A DNA stretch of 64,000 bases from a phage, in NCBI GenBank assembly GCA_018015315.1, contig GCA_018015315.1_3629.1. One strand, given 5' to 3'. This document shows positions 47,831 to 62,490 of this stretch, piece by piece (the stretch's first letter is position 1; each line of letters opens with the position of its first letter). Made by a program: the position numbers and the translations under genes. Under the pieces are notes generated by a model. That model was not told the DNA's origin. It did not search any database and saw only the letters and a program-made list of their open reading frames with translations.

Positions 47831-47950
47831 ATGTTTCAAGCCATGTTTATTGAAATGCTCTCCGGAGTATTACTGCTGGTAGCCATTTTGGGTGGTGCGG
47901 CACTAATGTATAATTATCTTGAAAAAGGGGACAGTAATGACAAAAAATAA
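47831..47950 (+). CDS. small hydrophobic peptide (39 aa)
   Basis: GAGGGGA RBS; single TM-like segment; below track size cutoff. Confidence 0.3.
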   Translation: MFQAMFIEMLSGVLLLVAILGGAALMYNYLEKGDSNDKK

Positions 47951-48122
47951 ATCCTTAGAACAGGCTGAAAACCTTCTCCACGAGCTGGTAAAGGAGTGGA
48001 AAGTCGAATACTCAGATTTTAATGCAAGAGAGGGTGAAGATTATTGGCCTACGGAGCGCTCAGAGGGAGAGTGGTATCAAGATTTCATAGAATGGTTATA
48101 TCAGACGTGTGATGAGGGGTGA
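47937..48122 (+). CDS. hypothetical acidic protein
   Basis: ATG after AGGGGA, overlapping upstream peptide. Confidence 0.35.
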   Translation: MTKNKSLEQAENLLHELVKEWKVEYSDFNAREGEDYWPTERSEGEWYQDFIEWLYQTCDEG

Positions 48123-48580
48123 CGATGTTTGTTAAATATGTAAAAACGTGCCTCAACAACCTTGGTAGAGAGCATTGGTACACCTTGCTTGAAAAAGGAG
48201 AAATTTTAACAAAATCTGGAAAGATAACTTTGATACCCTTGGATGATAAAGACCCGTCACTACTTGTCATAGATGATTACGTTACAGGTGTGTCGTACGA
48301 GGTCTCTGTGGAGAGGTTAATACGCAGATCTGGAGGGCCTTATGACCGAAGAGAGTATGTTTTCGATTCTGTTACAGAGAAGGAGGATCCGTCTCTAATG
48401 TTTAGGATGGTAATCAGGGATATGAAATCATCTATAAATAGGATCGTAAAGGACATTAAAGAGCCTTTTAGGGTAAAAGTTAAGAAGTTTTTTGATTCTA
48501 AGATTAACATACTCGCCGTTGTGCTAGGCGTAATTCAACTTCTGTTAATTTTGCACTATCTTGAACTGTTGTTCAAGTAG
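48119..48580 (+). CDS. hypothetical protein with C-terminal TM segment
   Basis: 153 aa; C-terminal hydrophobic stretch. Confidence 0.4.
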   Translation: MTMFVKYVKTCLNNLGREHWYTLLEKGEILTKSGKITLIPLDDKDPSLLVIDDYVTGVSYEVSVERLIRRSGGPYDRREYVFDSVTEKEDPSLMFRMVIRDMKSSINRIVKDIKEPFRVKVKKFFDSKINILAVVLGVIQLLLILHYLELLFK

Positions 48581-48640
48581 TGTGCAACAAGGCACAAAGG
48601 ATGTGCCATGATTAAATAAACTAAGAAAGAGGTAGAGAGA

Positions 48641-48988
48641 ATGCCAAAGATTAAGTCGGTATTAATGTGGGCAGCTGTTGTAGCTTTTGTAGGATACTGG
48701 ACTTGGGAAACTGAATTAAAAGATATCGGATATACCAGTCTTGAGAGCAAGGCATGCATTGGCATAACCGATGCATTCAGGCAAAATGCTATGGATCATG
48801 AATGTGTTGATGCAGATATAGATGAGAAACTGTCTAAGGACAAGGATTTTTACCATGGGCATGCTTTGCTTGATAGTGGTGACACTGTAGAGTTCTGGTC
48901 GTGGTTCCGTGAAGATGGAACAATAAAAACAGCAGTAAAGATCTCTAACAAAGAGTTAATGCTGTTGCAGCAGAAGGAGGCTCAATGA
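48641..48988 (+). CDS. hypothetical protein with N-terminal TM/signal segment
   Basis: 115 aa; AAGAGGTAGAGAG RBS. Confidence 0.45.
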   Translation: MPKIKSVLMWAAVVAFVGYWTWETELKDIGYTSLESKACIGITDAFRQNAMDHECVDADIDEKLSKDKDFYHGHALLDSGDTVEFWSWFREDGTIKTAVKISNKELMLLQQKEAQ

Positions 48989-49272
48989 TCTGGATATCCT
49001 ATACTGATGGCACCATGCTGTATACTGCAGGTACCCGATATGAGGTTCAGGAGGACGATAAAAAATTTATCGTAAAAACATTTGACAAGGACGACAACCT
49101 TTTGCTAGAATTGACTTACAAGGTTGGAGAGGTATCCGATATCCAATTGGATTGTGGTCATAAAGATAATCCACTCAAAAAACCTGGAATAGGCAAGGCT
49201 TCAGAAGAACGTTTGTCTCGTATTGCAGAAAGCGTTTCTCCCCAAAAATCTAAGAAGAGGAGTAGAAAATGA
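48985..49272 (+). CDS. hypothetical protein
   Basis: 95 aa ORF. Confidence 0.4.
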   Translation: MIWISYTDGTMLYTAGTRYEVQEDDKKFIVKTFDKDDNLLLELTYKVGEVSDIQLDCGHKDNPLKKPGIGKASEERLSRIAESVSPQKSKKRSRK

Positions 49273-49469
49273 GTGACAAAATTCTTAAATTTAATACCTA
49301 CTATGAGAATGATTTGAACGATCTGTATTATATAGTGCGTAGCGAAAACCCGAATGTAGTACTGTTTTGCCGAGAACCTTTCAAAGGAGAGGAGATTGAA
49401 TCTACCATGAATGTGGATCAGATTTCACACCTGCTGCTCCTTGGATCATTAAAAGAGGCAGTATTCTAA
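49269..49469 (+). CDS. hypothetical protein
   Basis: 66 aa ORF. Confidence 0.35.
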   Translation: MSDKILKFNTYYENDLNDLYYIVRSENPNVVLFCREPFKGEEIESTMNVDQISHLLLLGSLKEAVF

Positions 49470-49488
49470 ACCAGGATGGAGGGTTTTT

Positions 49489-49677
49489 ATGAAGCACTAT
49501 TGTCTGTCTGGTAGGATGGGTGCAGATTGTGATTGGGTTTTCTTAAAACTTGTCAGTATTCGAGAGTTCATTCCAGAGGAAGAGCAAGAAAGTGAGCTGA
49601 TGTCATGGATCAACCATTACGGTAACACTTTTCGGCATGTTAAGGTGGAAGAGTTGCCAAGCGAGGCTGAATTATGA
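49489..49677 (+). CDS. hypothetical protein
   Basis: 62 aa ORF. Confidence 0.35.
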   Translation: MKHYCLSGRMGADCDWVFLKLVSIREFIPEEEQESELMSWINHYGNTFRHVKVEELPSEAEL

Positions 49678-49967
49678 AACTTTTTGAGTGGTTTAAAAAG
49701 TTTAAATATAAAGCTGTAGCCATCGTGCCGTGGTCCATTCAGTGGGTGGACGATGATGGATTACCAATTCCAGGTGATAAAGACACGGGATACTGGATCA
49801 TGCTTGAGAACGGGTTCGGTAAACGGAAATATTCCTGCACGGATACCTCAGGAGCATCTTTTAGGAGAATTCCTGGGTATAAATGTATGATTGTGTGGAA
49901 GATGTCTGGTGTACCTCCGGCCAATGCACAATATCTTACTACCAATCCAACCACAGAAGAGGACTAG
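49674..49967 (+). CDS. hypothetical protein
   Basis: 97 aa ORF. Confidence 0.4.
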   Translation: MKLFEWFKKFKYKAVAIVPWSIQWVDDDGLPIPGDKDTGYWIMLENGFGKRKYSCTDTSGASFRRIPGYKCMIVWKMSGVPPANAQYLTTNPTTEED

Positions 49968-49969
49968 TA

Positions 49970-50251
49970 ATGAAAAAGATTTGCGATACAGATGTGGAGT
50001 TCAAGGTGTGTAGTAAGGAGACCTATTGGGAAGTGAGACAAAAGGTATATTTGTTTGGACTTATCCCATATTGGTCTAAATTCTACTGGGGAGCAGATGA
50101 ATTAGGGAGATATGCCACCAAAGCTATGGCGCTTATAGGTATAGCTGAATATATTGCTGCTAGGGACAGGGCTGGAAAAACCTGCTACTACACTGCTGAC
50201 GAGATTCGTAACAGTGTTTACGTCCCACAACCACCTGATGGAGACCGTTGA
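49970..50251 (+). CDS. hypothetical protein
   Basis: ATG after GAGGA RBS directly after upstream stop. Confidence 0.4.
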   Translation: MKKICDTDVEFKVCSKETYWEVRQKVYLFGLIPYWSKFYWGADELGRYATKAMALIGIAEYIAARDRAGKTCYYTADEIRNSVYVPQPPDGDR

Positions 50252-50475
50252 TGAAAGTTAAAGTTTTAGATTCAAGCTTCTATATTGGTCAGGAGCCTTT
50301 AGTAGGGAAAGTGTTTACTGCTGTCCCTAACGAAGATTACCCTGACCTTTTAAAAATAAAAGGGGCAGATCTTATTGCCGCTGGTGCATCTCAGGACTGC
50401 TTTGACAGCCAGTGGGACTACAACTTTGCCCTAGGTGAGGATGTAGAGATAGTGGAGGACGATCATGAAGGTTAA
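50248..50475 (+). CDS. small acidic protein, MKVK paralog family
   Basis: MKVKVLDSSFYIGQ, IKGADLIAAGA, C-terminal VEIVEDD. Confidence 0.5.
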   Translation: MMKVKVLDSSFYIGQEPLVGKVFTAVPNEDYPDLLKIKGADLIAAGASQDCFDSQWDYNFALGEDVEIVEDDHEG

Positions 50476-50719
50476 AATTCTTGATTCTAACGTCTACTTG
50501 GGGCAATCCTTCCTGAAAGGAAAGGTCGTCCCTGCGGTATACTTTGAAGGGTTGCCGTGGGATGATCCTGTGCGGCAACATCACAGTTATGTAGGCCACA
50601 ACGTGGTGTTTATTTTAGGATCAGACCTGATCACCGCTGGTGCACCTGAATATTATTTCGGGGAAGAGTCCTATTATGCCTTTGGGGTAGGGTCAGATGC
50701 AGATATTGTAGAGCTGTGA
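50465..50719 (+). CDS. small acidic protein, MKVK paralog family
   Basis: MKVKILDSNVYLGQ, ILGSDLITAGA, C-terminal DIVEL. Confidence 0.5.
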   Translation: MKVKILDSNVYLGQSFLKGKVVPAVYFEGLPWDDPVRQHHSYVGHNVVFILGSDLITAGAPEYYFGEESYYAFGVGSDADIVEL

Positions 50720-50731
50720 TGGGTAACCGTT

Positions 50732-51130
50732 GTGAAAAATAAACTGTTCAAAGTTACAATGAAAATTCGCGGAGCTTGGAGCGTAAAGCAAGGGCGTATC
50801 CCAGAATTTGAGAAAGACTTCTACGTAGTCTCCACCTCGGAGGAGGCTGCATGCTGGCAGGCTGGCTATGCCTATGCAAGAACCTGGTACGAAGGATACC
50901 AGACTGGGGGCTATGACGGAGAAATTGTCAGCAAGGGTGTAGAAGAAATTAATGTGTTGACAAGTGAAAAAGTTTTTGTTATAGTGCATCCAGATTCCAG
51001 AGTGAAGCATTACTGGAATGCCAGAACAAAAACTTGGACACCGTTTGCAGATTCTGCTACTCCACTTTTAAACCAGAAAGCTCTTGACTCTGCCCCAAGT
51101 TATGGGGTTGTTGAAGAAAAGCTAAACTGA
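50732..51130 (+). CDS. hypothetical protein (paralog of 52941-53336)
   Basis: shared segment HPDS..YWN..WTPF with 52941-53336 product. Confidence 0.45.
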   Translation: MKNKLFKVTMKIRGAWSVKQGRIPEFEKDFYVVSTSEEAACWQAGYAYARTWYEGYQTGGYDGEIVSKGVEEINVLTSEKVFVIVHPDSRVKHYWNARTKTWTPFADSATPLLNQKALDSAPSYGVVEEKLN

Positions 51131-51147
51131 AACAGTGAGGTGTCACC

Positions 51148-51438
51148 ATGATGGATTTAATTCTAAATATTGATAACGCAGGAGAGTTTAAAGACGATGG
51201 TGTAACAAGCATGGACAAACCCTGCTCTGCTAAGGTTGACTCAAAATGGACCTATAAGTTTGATGGAGAGATCTTCGCAAATGATGAGAAGGTTGTAGAT
51301 GCTGCAGCCATTTTGAACGCTCTAGGTTACGACCCTGTGAATTCTTTGATCAAGGATCCTGTTGAGTTTGCGGAGTATGTTCGAAAAATGGCAGATCTTG
51401 CTGTAGATATTTTAAAAACTATCGACAACAAGCTATAA
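51148..51438 (+). CDS. hypothetical protein
   Basis: 96 aa; GAGGTG RBS. Confidence 0.4.
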   Translation: MMDLILNIDNAGEFKDDGVTSMDKPCSAKVDSKWTYKFDGEIFANDEKVVDAAAILNALGYDPVNSLIKDPVEFAEYVRKMADLAVDILKTIDNKL

Positions 51439-51443
51439 AACTG

Positions 51444-51472
51444 TTGACACAATGCTTCAGCTATAGTATTAT
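51444..51472 (+). promoter_or_regulatory. sigma70-like promoter upstream of hpf-like gene
   Basis: TTGACA-17 bp-TATTAT, then leader hairpin AGAGAGA..TCTCTCT and AAAGGAG RBS. Confidence 0.5.
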
Positions 51473-51524
51473 TGTTTTCAAAGAGAGATGGTTGTTACTC
51501 TCTCTTCCTTAAAAGGAGCACGTT

Positions 51525-51842
51525 ATGCAAATTGAAATCACTGGCAACGTAGAAATCACTGAAGGTATGGTGTCTTTCATTTCCCACAAAATGTCTAAGC
51601 TGGAGCGTTTGCACCCATCTGCCAACTATGCACGTGTGAGTGTAAAAGTTGAAAATGATCACCAGGAAGTCATGGCGTTCATTTTTGACACTTCCGGAAA
51701 AGAAGTTATTGCCAAAGCTAAAGGCAGTGACGCTTACGAGGCAACTGACCGTATGGTAGATGTTGCAGCACGTCAGTTGGCTAAATGCGGTGGAAAGAAA
51801 GGTAAAGGGAAAGGCAAAGTAAAGATTGACTTTGGAGAATGA
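51525..51842 (+). CDS. hpf: ribosome hibernation promoting factor / RaiA-family homolog
   Basis: MQIEITGNVEITEGM closely matches E. coli HPF N-terminus MQLNITGNNVEITEA (from memory); about 100 aa; basic Gly/Lys tail. Confidence 0.7.
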   Translation: MQIEITGNVEITEGMVSFISHKMSKLERLHPSANYARVSVKVENDHQEVMAFIFDTSGKEVIAKAKGSDAYEATDRMVDVAARQLAKCGGKKGKGKGKVKIDFGE

Positions 51843-51979
51843 GGTGCTACAATGGGCGTGATTAAGAAATTAGTCCCAAATGTAGAGATTGCATGCTTTG
51901 AAATTATGTTTGCAATCGCAGTTGTAGTTAATGTGTTAGGTTACGGCTATTAATATCAAATAATTGAGGAGACCTCTAA

Positions 51980-52249
51980 ATGAAAATTAAATTATTCAAA
52001 ACTGAGCTGGCAGACAAAAACTGTGGACTGGTTGAAGGCATGATTGTTGAAGCACAACCAGTGGACTATATGAAAGTGGTTCGTGATGCCCTGGGTGAAG
52101 GTTTTGATCTGATGGAGCCAGCTCTGCGCGAAGATGTTATCGAGATGGCTAAAAAGCACACACCTGAAGGTTTGGTGGTGTTTGTTGCACCGGGTAACGG
52201 AGAAGAGTTGATTGTAACTCCTGATGTGTATGAGATTGTAGAGGAATAA
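51980..52249 (+). CDS. small acidic protein, paralog family (YEIVEE tail)
   Basis: MKIKLFK N-terminus, C-terminal PDVYEIVEE. Confidence 0.45.
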   Translation: MKIKLFKTELADKNCGLVEGMIVEAQPVDYMKVVRDALGEGFDLMEPALREDVIEMAKKHTPEGLVVFVAPGNGEELIVTPDVYEIVEE

Positions 52250-52340
52250 TCCTGCTTGGATTAGCATACTTACTCGATAAGGAAGATTTGTAATTATTTG
52301 TGGGAAAGGAATCCCAATCTCTTACCAGAGGTGATACTAT

Positions 52341-52604
52341 ATGATTGTTTATTTTAAAACTTCAGGTGGATACCCTGATTCTCAAAGCTTGATCGGGAAA
52401 ACGTGCACAGCATACTCACCTCTTGATGAAGAGGTAGGTGATATTCTACGAAATATGTATCGGATTGACCCCCAAGAAGCTTTTGATCAAAACCTTGTAT
52501 TTGTCAAGGGCTCAGACATGAAGTCTTTGGGAGCATTCCCTGAAGCAGATGATGATGCCGTTTATTCGTTCATGACCCCTTTTGAAGCTATGGTTGTTGG
52601 GTGA
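52341..52604 (+). CDS. small acidic protein, MKVK family relative
   Basis: VKGSDMKSLGA core. Confidence 0.45.
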   Translation: MIVYFKTSGGYPDSQSLIGKTCTAYSPLDEEVGDILRNMYRIDPQEAFDQNLVFVKGSDMKSLGAFPEADDDAVYSFMTPFEAMVVG

Positions 52605-52608
52605 TAAT

Positions 52609-52941
52609 ATGAAAGTACGCTTTATTGGTGAAACAATTCCTGTGCATCTCCGGTCGCCTGAAGATTCTGCAGATCTTGCATCTCAGAAGGCGAGAGGTTA
52701 TGATAAGAAAGTAATCTCAACCGATGTAGAACTTGAGGCTACTAGTCTACCTGACCCTGCTGCATTCTTTAATCATTATGGATACTATTTCAGCAATCTG
52801 ATGAATATCGGTGAGCTTGTGTTTATTAGTGGTGGAGAAATTGTTAGCAAGCTTGGCGGCGATCCGGATGTCTTTCATGAAACCTGTCCTTTTGCATTTG
52901 TGGTAGGTTCAGATGTGGAAGTTATTGAGGAGGTGCGGTAA
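52609..52941 (+). CDS. small acidic protein, MKVK paralog family
   Basis: MKVRFIGE, VVGSDVEVIEE tail; internal ATG chosen. Confidence 0.45.
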   Translation: MKVRFIGETIPVHLRSPEDSADLASQKARGYDKKVISTDVELEATSLPDPAAFFNHYGYYFSNLMNIGELVFISGGEIVSKLGGDPDVFHETCPFAFVVGSDVEVIEEVR

Positions 52942-53336
52942 TGGTAAGACTATACCGTGTTGAGTATAGCTCAGATACTGTATACAATGTAAGAAGCAAA
53001 GATCGCAGCGACAGAGTGCAAGAAATGTATGTTCTTGCCGACAGTCCGTTATCTGCAGCGTTCAAGGCAGGGTCTCTTGCATCTCGTTGGAAATTTGAAG
53101 GTGGATCTTTCTATGAAGAAACCCTTGAAGATTCTGTTGTTATTTCTTCTGCAGAGGTTTCAGATGACTACGAAGGGAAAAAGTTCGTAATGCGGCACCC
53201 ACACAGCAACATTGCGTACTACTGGGATGTTCTGAACAACGAGTGGACCCCAGATCTTCAGAAGGCCACTGTGCTAACACCGTTTTTGGCAGATAAGTTT
53301 CCACCAGAAGGTAATTTATCCGCACTGTTTCAGTAA
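52941..53336 (+). CDS. hypothetical protein (paralog of 50732-51130)
   Basis: RHPHS..YYWD..WTPD segment shared with 50732-51130. Confidence 0.45.
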   Translation: MVRLYRVEYSSDTVYNVRSKDRSDRVQEMYVLADSPLSAAFKAGSLASRWKFEGGSFYEETLEDSVVISSAEVSDDYEGKKFVMRHPHSNIAYYWDVLNNEWTPDLQKATVLTPFLADKFPPEGNLSALFQ

Positions 53337-53354
53337 TTTTCTTGCACACAGGTG

Positions 53355-53383
53355 TTGACAACGCCAACCCTGTGTGAAATAAT
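53355..53383 (+). promoter_or_regulatory. sigma70-like promoter (weak -10)
   Basis: TTGACA-17 bp-AATAAT. Confidence 0.35.
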
Positions 53384-53412
53384 ACCTTCATCTTAACAAG
53401 ACAGGAGACCGA

Positions 53413-54353: not shown

Positions 54354-54640
54354 TGAAAGATCTGGTTAAGATTAAGATTAAAGATACCAATGGGGAGCTC
54401 AGCCATTTTGGAATTAATGATGGTGACGAGCTGATCGCACACCTGCCTACCAAGGAGGTTGTAAGCAAAGCAGTTGCCGGAGAAGAAGCTGCAATGCAGG
54501 CTGCAGGTGTGGATGAAAACTATGTAGCTATGTGCATGTGCCGAGATCAGGTTGTTCTGTATAAAGCGTATCGACCAAACGGAGCCACGGAGTGGCTTGT
54601 ATTCCGACCCGAAGGATATGAAATCTTAGAGGCACTATGA
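54353..54640 (+). CDS. small acidic protein, paralog family
   Basis: KIKIKDTNGE, C-terminal EGYEILEAL. Confidence 0.45.
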   Translation: MKDLVKIKIKDTNGELSHFGINDGDELIAHLPTKEVVSKAVAGEEAAMQAAGVDENYVAMCMCRDQVVLYKAYRPNGATEWLVFRPEGYEILEAL

Positions 54641-54729
54641 TAAATCTTGCCAAGGTTGCAACGGCACTGTTAATTATTTGCTGGTCAGTAACCTTAACAC
54701 TGTGTCTTGTATTTCAGTGAGGTGCTTGT

Positions 54730-54993
54730 ATGAACATCCTGATGTGGGTTATAGCAGTGGCGTTTGTTGCATGTTTTTGCTGCTGGGTTGCGGTGAGGAT
54801 TTCTGTAGCTACCCTTCGGAAGTTGGGGTTCTCAGAATGGGATATTGATATCCTTTCTTTTCGCAATGAGACAATATCAGCCGCCCTGCTTTGTAAGAAA
54901 TTCAAGTGGGAACCTTGTGAGGTCATGAACTATCTAAGAACGGGAGATATCCCTGAAAGATTTAAAAAAGTTCTTGACGGTAAGGATAAATGA
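54730..54993 (+). CDS. small membrane protein
   Basis: 87 aa; N-terminal TM segment. Confidence 0.4.
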   Translation: MNILMWVIAVAFVACFCCWVAVRISVATLRKLGFSEWDIDILSFRNETISAALLCKKFKWEPCEVMNYLRTGDIPERFKKVLDGKDK

Positions 54994-55002
54994 TAGTATA
55001 GT
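54974..55002 (+). promoter_or_regulatory. sigma70-like promoter
   Basis: TTGACG-17 bp-TATAGT. Confidence 0.45.
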
Positions 55003-55021: not shown

Positions 55022-55162
55022 ATGACAGATTTTACTGAAGCTTTAATGATGGCCTTGTCTGTTTTAGCGCTATCGGTGTGTTTTGGGGCGTTATTCACAT
55101 CTCTGGTTAAAGTTTTACATACAGTATTATTACCCAAGGAGCGCAGTAATGACGAAGATTGA
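55022..55162 (+). CDS. small hydrophobic peptide (46 aa)
   Basis: AGGTGAGGA RBS; hydrophobic core; below track size cutoff. Confidence 0.35.
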   Translation: MTDFTEALMMALSVLALSVCFGALFTSLVKVLHTVLLPKERSNDED

Positions 55163-55400
55163 CTTGAATGCTGGCGACCATGTTGTTGTCAAATGCATCG
55201 GAGATTATCTTGGATTCACAATCGGCAATACTTACGAGGCGGTAGTGGCGAAGGTTTATCATGATAAAGTCCTCAGTCTTGTATTTGACTGCGATGATGA
55301 TGGGGATGACCGATACGTCTGTGAGGTGCTGGCACGAGACGATAGTGAAGACCAGAAATTCCTGGTTATTGAACTGAACGGTATTTTTGTAGAACGTTAA
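55149..55400 (+). CDS. hypothetical protein
   Basis: ATG after AGGAGCG, overlapping upstream peptide. Confidence 0.4.
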   Translation: MTKIDLNAGDHVVVKCIGDYLGFTIGNTYEAVVAKVYHDKVLSLVFDCDDDGDDRYVCEVLARDDSEDQKFLVIELNGIFVER

Positions 55401-56424: not shown

Positions 56425-56448
56425 CAAAATATCAAATTTAAGACACCT

Positions 56449-56479
56449 AGGACGCTCTGTGGCGTCCTTTTCTTTATTT
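56449..56479 (+). terminator. rho-independent terminator
   Basis: AGGACGC-TCTGTG-GCGTCCT followed by TTTTCTTTATTT. Confidence 0.65.
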
Positions 56480-56637
56480 AGTGCACGATTGCATACCTTG
56501 GACAGATAATCTCATTACAGAGCGTTTAAGAGCTTCCTACAAACAACTCCATATTTCGAGCGTAGCGAGAACGCACGTCCGTTTTGACCCAAATCACCAT
56601 ACGCTCGGATTTTAACCAAACCCTCGCGGCGTTTCTG

Positions 56638-56666
56638 TTGACACATTATCGCTCCAGTGATAATAT
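56638..56666 (+). promoter_or_regulatory. sigma70-like promoter
   Basis: TTGACA-17 bp-TAATAT; lies inside track ORF 56584-56997. Confidence 0.5.
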
Positions 56667-56686
56667 CCACACATCATTTGGAGAAT

Positions 56687-56788
56687 ATGGAATACACAAT
56701 GAAAACACTGTCCGAAGTTTTGGTGGTGATCCTGATGATCATTACGTCCATAGCAGCTGTTGCCGGAATACTCACGGGTGGAACATGA
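56687..56788 (+). CDS. small hydrophobic peptide (33 aa)
   Basis: ATG after GGAGA (short spacing); single TM-like segment; stop overlaps next ATG. Confidence 0.3.
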   Translation: MEYTMKTLSEVLVVILMIITSIAAVAGILTGGT

Positions 56789-56997
56789 TCAACACACATG
56801 TATCTGAAGAGACATCCGAAGGAGTTACCATATGTCCATTGGCTGAGCCAGTGAAAGAGGAAAACTTCGATTCTGATGACTCTTCATCTTCGCTCCAGGT
56901 AGACCCTGAGGCTGATGACCTGACGTGGGAAGACATCGTAGATATCTGGTTCTCTATTATGCCTGAGCACGAAGAGTTCAGGGGCGGTAGACTATGA
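56785..56997 (+). CDS. small acidic protein
   Basis: 69 aa; C-terminal part of track ORF 56584-56997, restarted downstream of promoter. Confidence 0.4.
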   Translation: MINTHVSEETSEGVTICPLAEPVKEENFDSDDSSSSLQVDPEADDLTWEDIVDIWFSIMPEHEEFRGGRL

Positions 56998-57117
56998 AGC
57001 ACCGAGCCCACACAGGTTCCTCATGCTAAAGCATGGCCTGAAGAGGCAAACGTGCATAATTCCTGTGCATTGTGACGTATAAAACCCGTTCACACTCTCA
57101 TTTCCAGAGGAGATTTC

Positions 57118-57333
57118 ATGAAGATAGAAATATTTGGTGGAGTTGACAACACTCGTGGCCTGATTTACCTTGAATTCGATGAATCATACCTGCCAGAGGT
57201 GTTAAATATAGACTCTGTTGCTGAGGCTTTGGGAGTAAACCCTAAAGAACTCCACTCTTGTGCTGAGATCGATGGTTGGGAAGAGACCATGAACATTGAT
57301 TTCAGTGAAGTAGAGGATGAACCGCTGGACTGA
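57118..57333 (+). CDS. small acidic protein
   Basis: MKIEIFGG N-terminus like other family members; last plus-strand gene before non-coding region. Confidence 0.45.
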   Translation: MKIEIFGGVDNTRGLIYLEFDESYLPEVLNIDSVAEALGVNPKELHSCAEIDGWEETMNIDFSEVEDEPLD

Positions 57334-57683
57334 CACACAATTAGCTGCCAGGCTAAAGTGCTGGAAGCACCTATAACACATCTTTCAACTAAATTTCCTA
57401 CCACCACAATCACTTACCTCCCACACATGACTGTTTGCTTGTTTAGTGAGCAGTCATGCCTTGACATTCTTGCCTATCCTGATAAAATTAAGTTCTTCTC
57501 TTTTCTTTTACCGAGTAATTCGGGTTTTCTGTTCTCTTCGGTTTGAAGGGGTATGGAGATACACCTGAGTGAACAGGGTGAACAACCGAACATTTGGCTA
57601 TGGCATTAGCATGGCGAAGCGGACGGGTGACGAAAGAGGGGCCGGAGGACACCAGTCACTGCCATATGGTATATGGGTGATAA

Positions 57684-58224
57684 CCTGAAGAGTCTGAATA
57701 AGTGTTTAAGTACCAGTCAGAGGAAAAGGTGAATGGTAGCCGAAGGGGGAGGGGGGTTTCTTGTATCTTTAATTTGTATATTATGTATACACTTGTAAAC
57801 CAATCTCATTTGAATTTGTTTACCACACAAAGTGGATAGAGACAAATATTACCTATTAAACTTGAATTATTTATAGAAAATACCACAACACTACTTAAGT
57901 CTTTGATTTTACACACAAATCCTGCAGATATTCACCCTCCATATTTAACATACTTGTAACATATTCCATACTCTACCTGCCCGATCAATTCACCCAACTA
58001 CATCCCCATATTTTCCCTGTCTGTACTACCCCTGCCCCGCCGGGAGTCCCGTCATATCTGGCTTTCCAGCAAATATCACACCCACAAATATCATTGCCTG
58101 AAGAGGGTTTCATCCCATAGTACATGCCTTACCTGAAGAGCGCTTCATATACCCCGTAAATTTTTTAATTGACACCCTCCCCGCCGCCGGAGGGGGTTGG
58201 CTTTTCCCACACAGACCTGAAGAG
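57684..58224 (+). repeat. dispersed direct repeat CCTGAAGAG (4 copies)
   Basis: exact 9-mers at 57684, 58097, 58132, 58216 in non-coding DNA. Confidence 0.7.
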
Positions 58225-58785
58225 CCAGCCAGAAATATCTGAACAGGTCCAGCTATGCCACGATTTTGTGCTTGTCCTACAGGAGTGCTTCCCTGTCAGG
58301 AGCCGGTAGCGACTGGAGTGCTGCCAGGCGGACGAAATGGGAATACTTCTCATTCTTATAACAATTCTCAAATATCGAGGCAGTGAGACAAATTAATAGG
58401 CTTTGCCGTTCACACAATGGCACAACATTTGCAGCCTATCTTGTGGGGGGTGAATGAGAATACCTATCATTGCGAGAATAGTTATCATTACGGGCAATTT
58501 AACATAATACCCATTATGCGCACCACTGGCGATATATACAGGGGTTAATAACATGGTGGACTGTTTACGCACATTACAATTGCATTACTTATTATTTGTG
58601 TGGGATATAGTTAGCCACCAACAGATTGCATAATAACCTGCAGACTTCCAGCCGTCCAGACGCCTAAGCGCCTACACAATAAGGATTATACATACACAAC
58701 TGAATGTAAACAGGGCCGCAAAAATGCTACCATACAAGATTGTAAATTTTTCATGCAGCACTTGACAAAGAGGAGAAAAACTTGT

Positions 58786-58875
58786 CTGACATACTGGTGA
58801 CATAATATGACACTTTAGACACAATAGTGACATACTGGACACGATATGACACACTGGGCATAATTGACATACCTG
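58786..58875 (+). repeat. iteron-like array of (A/T)GACA(C/T)A motifs at 10-11 bp spacing
   Basis: about 8 copies, including TGACATACTGG twice and TGACACACTGG once. Confidence 0.7.
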
Positions 58876-58983
58876 ACTGTTTACGCTGTCACTATTCACT
58901 CGCTTACATGCTTAATAGACTACATGACTAATAGTTTACATAGCTAACTGTTCACGTATAGATTGTTTACTTAAAAATGATAA

Positions 58984-59264
58984 GCCATGCCATTCGTTTG
59001 CATGATAAAGATTAGCAAGTTAATAATCTTTCACTGGCTATGCCAGGTGACCTTTTGTCACCTCTTCGGGTGTTTCTATGACATAATATAAAAGCAGGGC
59101 AACTATTAGCAGATCTATAGTTGCCTTGCTTGTTATGTCATGATTAACTAAATACAAGGCAACTATGATCTGATTAATAGATTGCAGACAAACTATCACG
59201 GGGGTGATGGTTACTGCTTTTATATTATGTCGCGACTCCGTCGCGCCATGCCATTCGTTTGCAT
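58984..59264 (+). repeat. 20-bp perfect direct repeat GCCATGCCATTCGTTTGCAT (2 copies)
   Basis: copies at 58984-59003 and 59245-59264. Confidence 0.8.
59098..59125. repeat. palindrome GGCAACTAT-10 bp-ATAGTTGCC
   Basis: 9-bp inverted repeat; further half-site copies near 59160 and 59265. Confidence 0.75.
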
Positions 59265-59880
59265 AGTTGCCTTATTGTTACAGATAAAATAATTATATTG
59301 TTAATTATTTCTTATCTTTCTCTTAGTCATCTAATGATTCCAGTCAGTATAGTAATGTACAGTAAACATTAGACGACTAAAGATTTATCTGCTTATAATA
59401 ACTTACCGTGACAATTCCGGACTGTTTACGAAAAATGTTGACACCTGAGCTGATTTATGTTATGCAATTTACACGAATAATTATTTTATGCAGGTATTGA
59501 CTATTACGTTATTCTATGGTCGGAATAAATACTTAGCGGACTATAGAATGGTGACGCTACGTGAATTCTGGAATTTAGTGGCTATAGTTATACCCGATTT
59601 TTCACGTAGAACACGCTTTTGTGGTTATGTAAGTGTATGACTTATAAAGATTTTTAGTTGTTGACAAGGCACTGAAGATATGCATCAGGTTAAATTTTGT
59701 GCAATAGCTGCATTACGTGCAATTTTGGAAGGAAAAACGTGTAAAAATGGCCCTGCTACCACACAATGAAAGATTATGCAATAGCTATTTTACATGTATA
59801 TTTGTACAGTGTGTGGGATTGATGGCTAGTCAATTATTCCACTTGCCAGGCTGGGCCGTTTGTGGTAGGAGAAATACAGA

Positions 59881-59909
59881 CAAAAAGAAAGGGGCCTTTT
59901 AAAGCCCCT
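59881..59909 (-). terminator. rho-independent terminator
   Basis: GGGGC..GCCCC hairpin followed by U-tract on minus strand; 20 bp downstream of stop of 59928-60347. Confidence 0.6.
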
Positions 59910-59927
59910 GATAGTTTAGTTAAGAAA

Positions 59928-60347
59928 TTATAATGATTCGTATATTTGATAGATTCGATTTGCCAGGTCATTACGATAGCGGAATTTTTCATCACGCTTG
60001 ATCATCAGATCTTTGAAGCCATATTCTTTAAGCACTTCATTAACTTTATAGCGGCATACCTTCATATTATCTTGCGCGTCACCGATAAACTTGTTGCTAT
60101 GATGCATGGCTTTGATCTCTTCCTCCAGGACCAGGGCAACTACGCGGACCGGATCAAGCTGATATGCGGTAACATCAATGCGGCATTGTAAACGGCTTTT
60201 AACGTCTGCCACCGGATATACTGCAACCTCTTCCCCGTCAACATTCACAATAACCAGTTTACCATCAATTTCAAAACCTTTTGCGGCTGGGCCGTGACAA
60301 AAAGCGTTATCAAAGCTGTATGCGGGATTGTTAGATTTAATATTCAT
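59928..60347 (-). CDS. hypothetical protein
   Basis: 139 aa; own promoter and terminator. Confidence 0.5.
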   Translation of the reverse strand: MNIKSNNPAYSFDNAFCHGPAAKGFEIDGKLVIVNVDGEEVAVYPVADVKSRLQCRIDVTAYQLDPVRVVALVLEEEIKAMHHSNKFIGDAQDNMKVCRYKVNEVLKEYGFKDLMIKRDEKFRYRNDLANRIYQIYESL

Positions 60348-60393
60348 GGTGTTTACCTCTTAGATAATTTTCTTACAACTTCCCTTCAAAAAG

Positions 60394-60422
60394 AATATAG
60401 CAAAACTGCCGATCCCTGTCAA
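60394..60422 (-). promoter_or_regulatory. sigma70-like promoter
   Basis: minus-strand TTGACA-17 bp-TATATT. Confidence 0.5.
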
Positions 60423-60483
60423 CAAGGGATAGCATAATTTTTGTGTGGGCAATAGGGGCCGTAGCCCCTGGTTGTATCGCCTG

Positions 60484-60747
60484 TTATTTGTTATTCATCC
60501 AGTTTTCCCAAGATGCCTGATACTCGGCCTCACTGCGGCGGATCTCTTCTTGTTCTGCAAGGCGGATCTCTTCTTCCAGGTAGCCTAAGATGTCAGCTTT
60601 TTTGGTCTGGCGTAACATCCAATCGTCCTTTTTGCGAGTAAAGATTTTATATGCTTTCTCACAAACTTCTTTTTTGCTACCTTTCTGTACTTCAAGGATA
60701 CGGTAGGCCATGTATTGAACTAATTTAAGTTGGTCGATACGTTTCAT
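60484..60747 (-). CDS. hypothetical protein
   Basis: 87 aa ORF. Confidence 0.45.
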   Translation of the reverse strand: MKRIDQLKLVQYMAYRILEVQKGSKKEVCEKAYKIFTRKKDDWMLRQTKKADILGYLEEEIRLAEQEEIRRSEAEYQASWENWMNNK

Positions 60748-60806
60748 GATGTTTTCCTCTTTTGTGGTCTTGATTAGTGGGCCTTCCGGCCCGTGTCATT
60801 ATCTTA

Positions 60807-61079
60807 TTACTTACGGCGGCAGAATTCAAGGGTTTTTAATTGATAATCTTCCTCGGCCTGGAGTACAACCGCCTCGATCATTTCGTTGGCATTGTTGAAG
60901 CCATAACCTTTAGCGAACTCATCCGCACCACCTTTGTGATCATGTTCTGCGTTCATCGCTTCCACAAAATGGAATTCCAGATTGTTAAGGTATGGGCTTG
61001 ATGTTCCGTCCTCTTTTTCGATGAGATCCCAAATAGCATTAAAACGTGATTCGACTTCTTGATTAATCCAGCTTGACAT
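60807..61079 (-). CDS. hypothetical acidic protein
   Basis: 90 aa; GAGAGAGGAAAA RBS. Confidence 0.45.
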   Translation of the reverse strand: MSSWINQEVESRFNAIWDLIEKEDGTSSPYLNNLEFHFVEAMNAEHDHKGGADEFAKGYGFNNANEMIEAVVLQAEEDYQLKTLEFCRRK

Positions 61080-61244
61080 AATGTTTTCCTCTCTCCTGGT
61101 TGTTGTGTGGGCACCTTTGCCCCTTCAAGATAAATGTTAACTCACTTATCGAAAGGTGTCAACGGTTTTTATAGTTCTTATATGACAGGCAGGCCCGGTG
61201 ATTGTCTCCCCCCGTCGCCAGGTGCCTGCCGTATAATAAGTATA

Positions 61245-61276
61245 ACAAAAAACAGGACCATTGCAAGCCCTGTTTT
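61245..61276 (-). terminator. rho-independent terminator
   Basis: AACAGG..CCTGTT hairpin with T-runs on both strands. Confidence 0.5.
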
Positions 61277-61283
61277 GTAAAGA

Positions 61284-61487
61284 TTAGATGATCTGCATAT
61301 CCTCCACGATAATTTCTAATTTACAAACAAGATGATCTAAGCTCCCTGATAAAAATGATTCCGATACATAACCGCCATCGGATACTGTAGCAAGGATCTC
61401 TCCATTTGCTTGCTCTTTGATTTGAACGTCTAGGCGGTTAGCCTTTGCTTTGTTCAGGACGGCAATCAGGCGGTTAGCTGTAGTCAT
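61284..61487 (-). CDS. small protein, early-gene paralog group
   Basis: 67 aa; GGAAGG RBS; conserved leader GTAGGGCGGC upstream. Confidence 0.45.
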   Translation of the reverse strand: MTTANRLIAVLNKAKANRLDVQIKEQANGEILATVSDGGYVSESFLSGSLDHLVCKLEIIVEDMQII

Positions 61488-61570
61488 GGTTTTTCCTTCC
61501 AGTGGTTAGCGGCACCATTGCCGCCCTACAAAACACATCTTACACTATCCGGCACATCATGCAAGCTATT

Positions 61571-61762
61571 TTAAATCTTATCGCCAATATAATCTGATCT
61601 ATTCTTCTCTGTCATGCGTTTAAGCAATTCTTGCATATGGCTGATAGCTTGTAGCGTGTCTTCTTCCAGGCTTGAATCTACATAATCAGGATCGTCTATC
61701 ACCTTTCTATGATTATGATAACGCAGTACTGCTAATACCTTTCTGACTTGTTCAGTATTCAT
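61571..61762 (-). CDS. hypothetical protein
   Basis: 63 aa ORF. Confidence 0.4.
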   Translation of the reverse strand: MNTEQVRKVLAVLRYHNHRKVIDDPDYVDSSLEEDTLQAISHMQELLKRMTEKNRSDYIGDKI

Positions 61763-61778
61763 TTTACATCGCCCTTGC

Positions 61779-62069
61779 TTATTGTTGGCGGTTTACATAA
61801 GCTTTACCGTTTACCGTCATCGGCAGATCTTCCAGGTTTGGATCTTCCTTAAGGTCGCGCGCAAGCTCACCGCACCGGATACCCTCGAATCCGTAGTACT
61901 CTGTTGTACCGTCATTAAAAGTTTTAGCGGCAAGGCATAAGCGATAAGTAACCCCGATTTGATTGACGGCATGGATATCCGTTAGATCAACCTCTTTTGC
62001 CAGCTCTTTAGCCATTACAGGTGCGTTAAGTCCAACAACCAGGGCAACTACTGCGATCATCTTTTTCAT
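61779..62069 (-). CDS. secreted protein with signal peptide
   Basis: N-terminal MKKMIAVVALVVGLNAPVMA signal-like segment. Confidence 0.5.
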   Translation of the reverse strand: MKKMIAVVALVVGLNAPVMAKELAKEVDLTDIHAVNQIGVTYRLCLAAKTFNDGTTEYYGFEGIRCGELARDLKEDPNLEDLPMTVNGKAYVNRQQ

Positions 62070-62216
62070 TGTGTCTAGCCTCTTTCCGCTACGTTTAAGG
62101 CGGCGGTAACCGCCTGTTTATGCTTTGTTGGTTAATTTTCAGGTATCGCTATAAATTAAACTATGCTGTACGCTCAACTATAACAACGGTTTGGGGGATC
62201 TCACCTTCCACCACTA

Positions 62217-62375
62217 TCAAGGCTTTTTCTGCGTGATGGATATCTTTACCCGTTGCAGTGTGGCGGTGAAGTCTTTCATTTCGTCACGTGGTGTTTTAGT
62301 GCAATGCCAGATCTCAGGCTTACCTATTTGCAAGCCGCGTAAAAATTCTGTTTTGCCTGTTTTGTTAGTGATCAT
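62217..62375 (-). CDS. small protein (52 aa)
   Basis: minus-strand ORF with AAGGTG RBS; preferred over antisense track ORF 62191-62409. Confidence 0.3.
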   Translation of the reverse strand: MITNKTGKTEFLRGLQIGKPEIWHCTKTPRDEMKDFTATLQRVKISITQKKP

Positions 62376-62385
62376 TTGTTACACC

Positions 62386-62490
62386 TTAACCGATACCATT
62401 GGAAGATAGGATCATGTTAGCCAGAGTCGCAACCACTCCAACCGATAACACCAGGCCCACTATTACAACCGTGAAAATTTTCTCTAACAT
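62386..62490 (-). CDS. small hydrophobic peptide (34 aa)
   Basis: GAGGG RBS; single TM-like segment. Confidence 0.3.
   Translation of the reverse strand: MLEKIFTVVIVGLVLSVGVVATLANMILSSNGIG

What the first reader, a model, noticed from the sequence alone, without database searches (positions are those of the whole stretch)
47831..62490. Several unannotated micro-ORFs encoding hydrophobic peptides
Below the 60-aa cutoff of the ORF track there are RBS-preceded frames for 33-46 aa single-TM peptides (47831-47950, 55022-55162, 56687-56788, 62386-62490), each overlapping or coupled to the next gene. Such membrane peptides in phages are often modulators of lysis timing or host membrane proteins.
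Basis: seen in the sequence. Interest (0 to 1): 0.35.

Follow-up and report, generated by a model that had tools for sequence, protein, structure and literature searches.

The report
Known tiny membrane-peptide genes of rV5-like phage
The four short frames are real, conserved genes for 29-46-residue single-helix membrane peptides of an rV5-like E. coli phage, but relatives already list them as hypothetical membrane proteins and their function is still unknown, so the finding is ordinary.

Summary
The window is an rV5-like E. coli myophage (Vequintavirus). All four micro-ORFs exist at the stated coordinates, each with a Shine-Dalgarno motif, one hydrophobic helix, and overlap or close spacing with the next gene. 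They are conserved at full length in 114-156 phage genomes. Substitutions fall mainly on synonymous sites in the claimed frame (m1 22:5, m2 17:17, m3 20:15, m4 22:16 synonymous:non-synonymous against about 26% expected), and that frame scores best of all six.

They are not new. rV5 gp131, gp156 and gp173 were published in 2013 as 1-TMD "membrane proteins". Murica gp119, gp147 and gp158 are the same genes. All four match PHROG families of unknown function.

Refinements:
- m3 most likely starts at 56699 (29 aa) and sits just downstream of a conserved promoter-like site. It displaces the longer rV5 ORF162-type frame.
- m4 belongs to a two-gene cassette shared by three genera, has an invariant C-terminus in the seven variants aligned, and is missing from some relatives.

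Function is unresolved. No Pfam family or remote homologue was found. The endolysin lies 22-37 kb away, and only m1 is near an unproven "putative holin". My best reading is early or accessory inner-membrane peptides acting through their helix.

Seen in passing: an unannotated 27-aa candidate (54637-54720) and a roughly 300-nt ultraconserved ORF-free block (57455-57765).

The parts
47831..47950 (+). m1: 39-aa single-TM peptide gene, orthologue of rV5 gp131 and Murica gp119. Predicted N-out/C-in topology, because K/R occur only in the C-terminal tail.
   Evidence: ORF and GAGGGG SD. Start is ATG or GTG in all 11 loci. 22 synonymous vs 5 non-synonymous variants, P=2e-9; variable columns by codon position 3/2/20. 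Full length in 118 records. phrog_15251 E=1e-30. Listed as '1 TMD membrane protein' in rV5 Table S3.
55022..55162 (+). m2: 46-aa single-TM peptide gene, orthologue of rV5 gp156. Acidic N-tail; the C-tail carries the K/R residues and also encodes the SD and ATG of the next gene.
   Evidence: Strong SD AAGAGGTGAGGA. 17:17 overall, P=0.003; residues 1-33 give 14:7, P=2e-4; the tail is relaxed. Full length in 118 records. phrog_16755 E=4e-36. Only 11 homologue clusters, all 46 aa. Caveat: the start codon is AGG in SYGMH1.
56687..56788 (+). m3: single-TM peptide gene, orthologue of Murica gp147. The conserved start is probably 56699 (29 aa, MKTLSEV...). ATGA overlap with the next gene.
   Evidence: Residues 5-33 give 18:9, P=4e-5; residues 1-4 give 2:6. 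First ATG lost in L007. The phrog_34195 profile matches residues 5-33. 114 records. The competing long frame 56584-56997 (rV5 ORF162 / A51.2_106 type) gives 17:45, P=0.33, and is broken in L007.
62386..62490 (-). m4: 34-aa single-TM peptide gene, orthologue of Murica gp158 and at the rV5 gp173 locus. Predicted N-in/C-out topology. C-terminal motif AT(M/L)(A/S)NMILSS(N/H)GIG is invariant apart from those three positions.
   Evidence: GAGGG SD. 156 records in Vequintavirus, Phapecoctavirus and Justusliebigvirus. 22:16, P=1e-4. phrog_14631 E=2e-19. N-terminal half replaced in rV5 and Murica. Gene absent in ECP32, and no match in JEP1. 42 clusters, the longer contigs being 130-150 kb and phage-sized. 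Only 2 representative clusters among 1.84 billion.
51852..51953 (+).
   Evidence: Intact in all 12 loci. phrog_15151 E=4e-26. Listed as 1 TMD in rV5 Table S3. Too few variants for a selection test (4:9).
54637..54720 (+). Candidate 27-aa single-TM ORF (MINLAKVATALLIICWSVTLTLCLVFQ), ATGA-coupled to the upstream gene. Not annotated in any record inspected.
   Evidence: Full length in 118 records. No PHROG match. 8:8, P=0.04, which is suggestive only.
54974..55002 (+). Sigma70-like promoter (TTGACG-17-TATAGT) 20 nt upstream of the m2 ATG.
   Evidence: Both hexamers are conserved in 11 of 12 relatives, but the -35 lies inside the upstream gene's 3' end. A consensus match only, not evidence of function.
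56638..56666 (+). Sigma70-like promoter with extended -10 (TTGACA-17-TGaTAATAT) just upstream of m3. This would make m3 the first cistron of a transcription unit.
   Evidence: The -35 is invariant in all 12 relatives, and the TG and the key -10 positions are kept. It lies in an intergenic stretch downstream of the terminator-like hairpin at 56449-56468.
47937..48122 (+). Gene overlapped by the m1 3' end (rV5 gp132 homologue). Its SD (GGGG) and ATG lie inside the codons for the m1 tail K-G-D-S-N-D.
   Evidence: 28:17, P=4e-9. phrog_8789, unknown function.
55149..55400 (+). Gene overlapped by the m2 3' end (rV5 gp157 homologue). Its SD (AGGAG) and ATG lie inside the m2 tail codons.
   Evidence: 44:5, P=1e-21. 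phrog_12851, unknown function.
56785..56997 (+). Acidic 70-aa gene coupled to m3 by an ATGA overlap.
   Evidence: 32:42, P=2e-4. phrog_16356, unknown function.
62217..62375 (-). Gene 10 nt downstream of m4 (rV5 gp172 homologue, 71 aa in relatives). It travels with m4 as a two-gene cassette across three genera. In this window it is cut to 52 aa by a 1-nt deletion in an A-run.
   Evidence: 42:9, P=3e-18. phrog_5988, unknown function.
47480..47716 (+). 78-aa two-TMD protein (rV5 gp129 homologue, 'putative holin' in the 2013 paper), two genes upstream of m1.
   Evidence: phrog_10061, unknown function. Only 55-57% identical between allelic types within the genus, and not called a holin in any record listed.

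Best explanation
The four frames, plus two more of the same kind at 51852-51953 and 54637-54720, are genuine protein-coding genes of an rV5-like (Vequintavirus) phage.

Shown here:
- Each encodes a 27-46-residue peptide that is little more than one transmembrane helix.
- Each sits in a dense array of small accessory genes of unknown function and fills what would otherwise be a non-coding gap.
- Each has its own SD and is overlapped with or closely spaced to its neighbours. The polar tails of m1 and m2 also encode the SD and ATG of the next gene.
- The amino-acid sequences are under purifying selection, and the non-synonymous changes visible within the helices keep them hydrophobic.
- The frames are conserved across 114-156 genomes and match existing PHROG families.

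Inferred, not shown:
- Transcription is by host sigma70 RNA polymerase from promoters such as 54974-55002 and 56638-56666.
- The peptides insert into the host inner membrane during infection. The positive-inside rule predicts N-out/C-in for m1 and m2, and N-in/C-out for m3, m4 and the two extra ORFs.
- With almost no extramembrane mass, they probably act through helix-helix contacts with host or phage membrane proteins, or by self-association. This would tune the membrane state of the infected cell (transport, exclusion of other phages, defence or envelope signalling) rather than form part of the lysis cassette.
For: Identity of the window: 257 phage records match, with rV5-like phages the best at 92-97%.

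ORFs, SD motifs and overlaps.

Hydrophobic helix and charge distribution.

Conservation at full length: 118, 118, 114 and 156 records.

Synonymous excess confined to the claimed frame, best of six frames, with no stop-creating variants: m1 22:5 (P=2e-9); m2 residues 1-33 14:7 (P=2e-4); m3 residues 5-33 18:9 (P=4e-5); m4 22:16 (P=1e-4).

Non-synonymous changes visible within the helices are conservative, for example V/I/L/M/A/T/G exchanges.

Family matches: phrog_15251, 16755, 34195 and 14631, full length, E=1e-19 to 1e-36.

Prior annotation as 1-TMD membrane proteins in rV5 Table S3 and as CDS in Murica, MiataMamis, naswa and A51.2.

Promoter-like sites conserved upstream of m2 and m3.

The lysis gene is far away: endolysin at 25419-25889.
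Against: - There is no direct evidence of translation or membrane insertion. No ribosome profiling or peptide mass-spectrometry data were found for any Vequintavirus. The rV5 virion MS flagged neighbouring proteins but not these.
- The selection signal rests on a few haplotypes. P-values of 1e-3 to 1e-4 are only 1-2 orders better than wobble-sharing antisense control frames.
- m2 is the weakest case: 17:17 overall, and its start codon is AGG in SYGMH1.
- The m3 SD is poorly spaced for either start (3 nt or 16 nt).
- m4 is dispensable. It is absent in ECP32 and has no match in JEP1.
- Codon-usage scoring was uninformative.
- The functional part is pure inference. No Pfam match, no named homologue and no remote relatives were found, and all coupled partner genes are of unknown function.
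Confidence: 0.75

Rival explanations
1. Lysis-timing modulators. One or more of the peptides, chiefly m1, acts as an antiholin-like or holin-accessory factor that tunes when the holin triggers.
For: m1 lies two genes downstream of the 78-aa two-TMD protein that the rV5 paper called a 'putative holin' (gp129). No holin is encoded next to the endolysin in rV5 according to that paper. Small membrane proteins can regulate holins; T4 RI is an example (general knowledge).
Against: - The holin call rests only on TMD count. None of the records listed annotates that gene as a holin, and its PHROG family has unknown function.
- It has diverged to 55-57% identity within the genus while m1 stays at or above 90%, so the two do not co-vary.
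- m2, m3 and m4 are 29-37 kb from the endolysin and lie in different transcription units.
- There is no sequence relation to any known holin or antiholin family.
Confidence: 0.1
2. Small membrane-damaging toxins for host shut-off. The peptides oligomerise and depolarise or permeabilise the inner membrane, in the manner of type I toxins such as TisB, Hok or Ibs, rather than binding a specific partner.
For: Size (27-46 aa), very high hydropathy (GRAVY up to 1.8) and minimal polar ends resemble those toxins (the resemblance is from general knowledge). A promoter-like site sits directly upstream of m3.
Against: - No Pfam match to any family at E<=1, which would include the toxin families.
- The antisense frames show no independent conservation.
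- Six such peptides in 15 kb would be heavily redundant for one generic function.
- The invariant polar C-terminal motif of m4 suggests a specific contact.
Confidence: 0.15
3. Coupling or leader ORFs. The frames are translated only to deliver ribosomes to, or regulate, the downstream gene, and the peptide products have no function of their own.
For: All four overlap or closely precede the next gene. The tails of m1 and m2 contain the next gene's SD and ATG. m2 and m3 sit directly after promoter-like sites, as first cistrons.
Against: Pure coupling would not constrain the amino-acid sequence. Yet the helix-coding parts, which do not overlap anything, show strong synonymous excess (m1 21:4 outside the overlap; m2 residues 1-33 14:7; m3 residues 5-33 18:9). 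The hydrophobic character is also preserved across three genera for m4.
Confidence: 0.07
4. Chance ORFs in conserved spacers. The frames are not translated, and conservation reflects recent common ancestry or nucleotide-level constraint.
For: Relatives are only 5-15% divergent. Hydrophobic ORFs with an SD motif also occur on the antisense strand at about 3 loci per 16.5 kb. Wobble-sharing antisense frames reach P~2e-3 in the same test. Annotation pipelines disagree on m2 and m3.
Against: - Variation by codon position is 3/2/20 for m1 and 6/9/17 for m3.
- The claimed frame is the best of six for all four ORFs.
- No stop-creating variants or frame-breaking indels fall inside the frames, apart from the m3 3' end, which is rearranged in ECP32 and L007. 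Indels do occur just outside them.
- Start codons switch only between ATG and GTG, with the single exception of SYGMH1 m2.
Confidence: 0.05

Closest known systems
rV5 gp131, gp156 and gp173 (Kropinski et al. 2013, PMC3606486, Table S3); Murica gp119, gp147 and gp158 (KT001917); PHROGs 15251, 16755, 34195 and 14631
   Same: These are the same genes by synteny, length and sequence. m1 is 80-100% and m2 83-100% identical in protein across the genus. m4 is 76-100% identical across three genera. They are already described as 1-TMD 'membrane proteins' or hypothetical proteins.
   Different: - This window's m1 starts with ATG where most relatives have GTG.
- Its m4 has the N-terminal half typical of Phapecoctavirus and Justusliebigvirus, combined with the rV5-type ...SSNGIG end.
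- rV5 annotates gp173 with a 12-residue N-terminal extension.
- rV5 does not annotate m3 at all, calling ORF162 in another frame. The evidence here favours the Murica gene model.
Small inner-membrane regulator proteins of E. coli (AcrZ, MgtS, MgrB, KdpF, CydX, PmrR)
   Same: Under 50 aa, a single TM helix, almost no soluble domain. They act by binding larger membrane proteins. This is the mode of action I infer here (general knowledge).
   Different: No sequence similarity: no Pfam hit at E<=1. The genes here are phage-encoded and sit in arrays of accessory genes. No partner is known and no experiment exists.
Phage T4 small membrane proteins of the early/accessory class (Ac, Imm, Sp, RI)
   Same: Small membrane proteins of a large virulent myophage, encoded away from the endolysin. 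They act on host membrane machinery or on superinfecting phage. T4 Ac is assumed to act on the AcrAB-TolC efflux pump (as cited in PMC13250531).
   Different: No detectable homology: PHROG and Pfam scans gave only the peptides' own families. The peptides here are shorter (27-46 aa) than Imm or RI (sizes from general knowledge).
Type I toxin peptides (TisB, Hok, Ibs, Ldr, ShoB, DinQ)
   Same: Similar size, and extreme hydrophobicity for m3 and m4.
   Different: No family match. No evidence of an antisense RNA partner. The genes have ordinary SD motifs and are co-translated with neighbours, rather than being translationally silenced.
Pf3 / M13-type small coat proteins (topology analogue for m2 only)
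   Same: About 45 aa, an acidic N-tail, one TM helix and a basic C-flank, which predicts Sec-independent N-out/C-in insertion (general knowledge; charges).
   Different: Not a filamentous phage and no sequence similarity. m2 was not among the virion proteins flagged by mass spectrometry in rV5.

Membership tests
PHROG families 15251 (m1), 16755 (m2), 34195 (m3), 14631 (m4) | Full-length profile match at a significant E-value | tested here: met
   E=1.4e-30, 3.6e-36, 4.6e-21 and 2.2e-19. Profiles are covered end to end; m3 matches from residue 5.
Orthologues of rV5 gp131 / gp156 / gp173 and Murica gp147 | Same position between the same neighbouring genes, and high sequence identity | tested here: met
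   Annotation tables and alignments. For gp173 only the C-terminal half is alignable to this window's m4, but length, position and the downstream gp172 homologue are the same.
Single-pass membrane peptide (generic class) | One hydrophobic stretch of about 19 or more residues, long enough to span the bilayer | tested here: met
   Best 19-residue windows have mean Kyte-Doolittle hydropathy 2.21-2.95. rV5 orthologues were predicted to have 1 TMD by TMHMM and Phobius. Actual insertion into the membrane is not testable with these tools.
Holin / antiholin (lysis-timing proteins) | Encoded in or next to the lysis cassette (endolysin, spanins) | tested here: not met
   The endolysin is at 25419-25889 (phrog_90, E=3e-56). 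That is 21.9 kb from m1 and 36.5 kb from m4.
Holin / antiholin (lysis-timing proteins) | Sequence membership in a known holin or antiholin family | tested here: not met
   No Pfam hit at E<=1. Apart from weak matches (E 0.04-0.41) to other families of unknown function, the only PHROG hits are the peptides' own unknown-function families.
Holin / antiholin (lysis-timing proteins) | Controls the time of membrane permeabilisation | not testable with these tools
   This needs lysis curves of mutants. The only lead is m1's proximity to the unproven 'putative holin' gp129 homologue.
Type I toxin peptides (Hok/Gef, TisB, Ibs, Ldr, ShoB and others) | Match to the family profile | tested here: not met
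   The Pfam-A scan of all peptides at E<=1 returned nothing for m1-m4.
Type I toxin peptides | Overlapping or adjacent antisense RNA antitoxin; toxicity on expression | not tested
   No transcript data. Antisense frames show no independent constraint, but that says nothing about a non-coding RNA.
E. coli small membrane regulators (AcrZ, MgrB, KdpF, CydX/YbgT and others) | Match to the family profile | tested here: not met
   No Pfam hit. m4 has only 2 representative clusters among 1.84 billion proteins. m2 has 11 close clusters only.

The most novel reading that the evidence does not exclude
m4 is not a generic hydrophobic filler but a specific small membrane effector.

- Together with the 71-aa gp172-type protein it forms a two-gene cassette shared at about 85-92% nucleotide identity between three genera in two subfamilies: Vequintavirus, Phapecoctavirus and Justusliebigvirus.
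- Homology to most of those relatives ends about 25 nt upstream of its start codon.
- It tolerates replacement of its whole N-terminal half, but keeps an invariant C-terminal end, AT(M/L)(A/S)NMILSS(N/H)GIG, predicted to face the periplasm.

This pattern would fit a peptide that docks onto one conserved host envelope protein. Examples would be blocking entry of competing phages or disabling a membrane-bound defence. By extension, the six-peptide set could be a toolkit of such effectors.
Probability: 0.2. Interest if true: 0.45.

Novelty: already known. Interest (0 to 1): 0.15.

Why it matters
The finding matters little as a discovery. The genes are in public records, in PHROGs and in the 2013 rV5 paper, all with unknown function.

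There is a practical point for annotation.
- Of the nine annotated Vequintavirus records inspected, m1 is called in six, m2 in four and m3 in three.
- For m3, several records carry a conflicting longer frame (the rV5 ORF162 type). The substitution pattern does not support that frame.
- The comparative evidence here supports the small-gene models and a 29-aa m3.

If their targets were found, these peptides would add to the few known cases of phage micro-proteins that act inside the host membrane. Nothing here makes that directly testable beyond the standard experiments.

Tried and rejected
- **Pfam scan of all peptides and their coupled partner genes:** nothing significant.
- **PHROGs for the partner genes:** all of unknown function except a 'transcriptional regulator' (55429-55734) and a 'virion structural protein' (48119-48580).
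- **Large-database homologue searches:** m2 gave 11 near-identical clusters. An m4 profile gave 42 clusters, the longer contigs phage-sized. m4 against 1.84 billion representatives gave 2 clusters. No names, no other contexts and no remote relatives turned up. The tool refuses queries under 40 aa, so m1 and m3 could not be searched this way.
- **IMG/VR:** only 3 related loci, so GenBank phage records were used instead.
- **Codon-usage log-likelihood trained on the window's long ORFs:** the claimed frame is top or near top, but the margins are too small to count as evidence.
- **Literature:** no transcriptome, ribosome-profiling or toxicity screen for Vequintavirus small genes was found.
- **Holin link for m1:** considered and downgraded.
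- **Long frame 56584-56997 as the real gene instead of m3:** rejected.
- **The 57-aa extension of m1 from 47777:** rejected, because a 1-nt indel at -12 puts it out of frame in most relatives.
- **Conserved non-coding block:** no Rfam hit, no tRNA, fold z-score only -1.45, no match in E. coli genomes.

Full report
**What the window is.** The stretch 47000-63000 matches 257 phage records. The best are rV5-like E. coli myophages of the genus Vequintavirus: JES2013 at 95.8%, MiataMamis at 96.4%, and rV5 itself at 93.5%. The finding lies in two blocks of small, mostly uncharacterised genes. One is on the + strand up to about 57.3 kb (rV5 genes 128-163). The other is on the - strand from about 59.9 kb (rV5 genes 164 onwards). 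They are separated by the roughly 2.6-kb ORF-free region already noted for rV5 and Murica.

**Checking the observation.** All four frames exist exactly as stated.
- m1, 47831-47950 (+), 39 aa.
- m2, 55022-55162 (+), 46 aa.
- m3, 56687-56788 (+), 33 aa.
- m4, 62386-62490 (-), 34 aa.

Each has a purine-rich SD motif upstream: GAGGGG, AAGAGGTGAGGA, GGAG and GAGGG. Each has one strongly hydrophobic 19-residue window, with mean hydropathy of 2.2-2.95.

The coupling claim also holds.
- m1 starts on the last base of the upstream ORF's stop codon (TAATG) and overlaps the next gene's ATG by 14 nt.
- m2 overlaps the next gene by 14 nt.
- m3 overlaps the next gene by ATGA.
- m4 stops 10 nt before the next ATG.
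- The polar tails of m1 (K-G-D-S-N-D) and m2 (K-E-R-S-N-D) are encoded by AAAGGGGACAGTAATGAC and AAGGAGCGCAGTAATGAC. These stretches carry the SD and start codon of the next gene.

**Is it more than chance?** Hydrophobicity plus an SD motif is weak evidence on its own. A scan of both strands of 47000-63500 for ORFs of 25-60 aa with an SD motif and a hydrophobic window gave 11 frames. Four of them (three distinct loci) are antisense to real genes. I therefore relied on comparative evidence.

tblastn finds each peptide at full length in 118 (m1), 118 (m2), 114 (m3) and 156 (m4) records. About 119 Vequintavirus records are present in the collection, using the conserved non-coding block as the denominator. 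m1-m3 are confined to that genus. m4 is also found in Phapecoctavirus and Justusliebigvirus.

I aligned 11-16 loci fetched from GenBank and IMG/VR. I counted each distinct variant once and classified it against the consensus codon.
- The claimed frame gave synonymous:non-synonymous counts of 22:5 (m1, P=2e-9), 17:17 (m2, P=0.003), 20:15 (m3, P=2e-4) and 22:16 (m4, P=1e-4), against an expected synonymous share of about 26%.
- It had no stop-creating variants and was the best of all six frames for every ORF.
- Variable columns by codon position are 3/2/20 for m1 and 6/9/17 for m3.

The controls put these numbers in context. Antisense frames that share wobble positions with a real gene can reach about P=2e-3. 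Neighbouring accepted genes mostly reach 1e-8 to 1e-23, though the gp130 homologue (P=0.1) and 62533-62769 (P=0.17) scored no better than the micro-ORFs. On this basis m1 is secure, m3 and m4 are well supported, and m2 is the weakest. The m2 signal sits in residues 1-33 (14:7, P=2e-4), while its tail evolves freely.

The non-synonymous changes visible within the helices are hydrophobic-for-hydrophobic exchanges. Start codons alternate only between ATG and GTG. The one exception is m2 in SYGMH1, which has AGG.

**Refinements.**
- *m3 start and gene model.* Residues 1-4 are unconstrained (2:6), and the first ATG is lost in the divergent contig L007. The PHROG profile and the Murica gp147 annotation both begin at the second Met. 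The conserved product is therefore probably the 29-aa MKTLSEV... starting at 56699. The competing annotation is a long frame, 56584-56997, used in part by rV5 ORF162, A51.2_106 and JEP1_131. It shows no constraint upstream of 56785 (17:45, P=0.33) and is interrupted in L007. The model of m3 plus the 70-aa gene is the better one.
- *m3 transcription.* m3 lies just downstream of a promoter-like site, TTGACA-17-TGaTAATAT at 56638-66. Its -35 is invariant in all relatives. The site follows a terminator-like hairpin at 56449-68, so m3 would be the first cistron of its transcript. m2 is likewise preceded by TTGACG-17-TATAGT at 54974-55002.
- *m4 cassette.* m4 travels with the downstream 71-aa gene as a cassette that is 85-92% identical at nucleotide level across three genera. 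In most of those relatives the homology ends about 25 nt upstream of the m4 start. rV5 and Murica carry a different N-terminal half (MKQKLIDA...) but the same length. The C-terminal AT(M/L)(A/S)NMILSS(N/H)GIG is otherwise invariant in the seven variants aligned. ECP32 lacks the gene, and JEP1 gave no match.
- *Topology.* The positive-inside rule splits the set into two classes. m1 and m2 have K/R only on the C-terminal side. m3, m4 and the two extra ORFs have K/R only on the N-terminal side.

**Comparison with what is known.** These are not unannotated in the public sense.
- The original rV5 record has ORF131 (120 nt, equivalent to m1), ORF156 (141 nt, equivalent to m2) and ORF173 (the m4 locus with an N-terminal extension).
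- Table S3 of Kropinski et al. 2013 labels gp131, gp145, gp156 and gp173 as 'membrane protein, 1 TMD'.
- Murica annotates gp119, gp147 (m3, 90 nt) and gp158.
- MiataMamis annotates all four.
- A51.2 calls the m4 orthologue 'putative membrane protein'.
- All four match PHROG families of exactly their length, all of unknown function.

No Pfam family matches at E<=1. Large-database searches return only near-identical hypothetical proteins, the longer contigs being phage-sized. All coupled partner genes are of unknown function. Membership in the holin/antiholin, type I toxin or E. coli small-regulator families therefore fails on sequence. The resemblance is one of size and architecture only.

**How it most likely works.** What is shown is that these are constrained coding sequences for single-helix peptides, embedded in translationally coupled gene arrays. 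The rest is inferred: transcription by host sigma70 RNA polymerase, Sec-independent insertion into the inner membrane, and action through helix-helix contacts with host or phage membrane proteins.

m1 is two genes downstream of the gp129 homologue (47480-47716), which was called a 'putative holin' in 2013 on the basis of two TMDs and a charged C-terminus. Several points weaken that lead.
- The assignment is untested.
- None of the records listed repeats it.
- The protein is only 55-57% identical between allelic types within the genus, while m1 stays at or above 90%.
- The endolysin is 22 kb away, at 25419-25889.

I put lysis timing at about 0.1, a generic membrane-toxin role at about 0.15, pure coupling ORFs at about 0.07, and chance ORFs at about 0.05.

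**Verdict.** The 'unannotated' label and any novelty are not supported. The kind of gene is already known and catalogued, and function remains unknown. Interest is low.

**Seen in passing.**
- *A further candidate micro-ORF.* 54637-54720 encodes a 27-aa TM peptide, ATGA-coupled to the upstream gene. It is intact in 118 records, absent from every annotation inspected and from PHROGs, and only weakly supported by substitutions (8:8, P=0.04).
- *A truncated gene.* A 1-nt deletion in an A-run cuts the gp172 homologue downstream of m4 to 52 aa.
- *An ultraconserved block.* Inside the ORF-free region, about 57455-57765 is 97.8-100% identical in all 118 records that cover it, while flanking genes are 70-97% identical. 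It starts with a near-consensus promoter at 57461-57488. It has no Rfam, tRNA or E. coli match and no significant predicted fold. This is probably the most interesting unexplained feature within the given coordinates.

Noticed in passing
window 57455-57765 (+), inside the ORF-free region ~57400-59900: A roughly 300-nt block is 97.8-100% identical in all 118 Vequintavirus records that cover it, including a relative whose flanking genes are only 70-86% identical. It begins with a near-consensus sigma70 promoter (TTGACA-16-TAAAAT with TG, 57461-57488). It has no Rfam or tRNA hit, no E. coli match, and a fold z-score of only -1.45. It may be a conserved ncRNA or a cis-acting DNA element. The surrounding 2.6-kb 'non-coding' region is known from the rV5 and Murica papers but is unexplained.
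   Followed up: partly
window 54637-54720 (+): A 27-aa hydrophobic ORF (MINLAKVATALLIICWSVTLTLCLVFQ), ATGA-overlapped with the stop of the upstream gene. It is full length in 118 phage records, is not annotated in any of the nine records inspected, and has no PHROG match. The substitution test is only suggestive (8 synonymous : 8 non-synonymous, P=0.04).
   Followed up: partly
window 62217-62375 (-), deletion near 62225: The gene downstream of m4 (rV5 gp172 homologue, 71 aa in relatives) is truncated to 52 aa here by a 1-nt deletion in an A-run (A6 to A5). The remainder of the protein is readable in another frame. This is either a homopolymer sequencing error or a real frameshift.
   Followed up: yes
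window 56584-56997 (+): There is an annotation conflict among relatives. rV5 ORF162, A51.2_106 and JEP1_131 use a long frame across this stretch. Murica, MiataMamis and SYGMH1 annotate m3 plus a shorter gene (about 62-70 aa) starting at 56785. The long frame's N-terminal part shows no purifying selection and is broken in a divergent relative.
   Followed up: yes
window 62163-63000 and 60250-61000, 62500-63750: The region is a mosaic. 62163-63000 is 89% identical to Justusliebigvirus EmilieFrey, whereas most Vequintaviruses match only the m4 cassette there. The otherwise divergent contig L007 is 96-100% identical over 60250-61000 and 62500-63750. Both observations point to recent recombination in the accessory-gene block.
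   Followed up: partly
window 58550-59610 and 59080-59280: The ORF-free region contains six copies of an ACTGTTTACG-like 17-mer. It also has a cluster of inverted repeats, including an 18-nt pair that is perfectly complementary with arms 116 nt apart. Several public assemblies of related phages break within 57.8-59.1 kb.
   Followed up: no
window 25953-26159 (+): Immediately downstream of the endolysin (25419-25889) lies a 68-aa ORF with a lipoprotein-like N-terminus (…LFMAACLAC…). It may be an o-spanin or u-spanin-type lysis partner. Its PHROG family (4641) has unknown function.
   Followed up: no
window 16028-16126 (-): ARAGORN reports a 99-nt tRNA-like gene with a four-base anticodon (atcc) within the cluster of seven tRNA genes. 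Rfam scores it weakly as a tRNA (37.5 bits).
   Followed up: no
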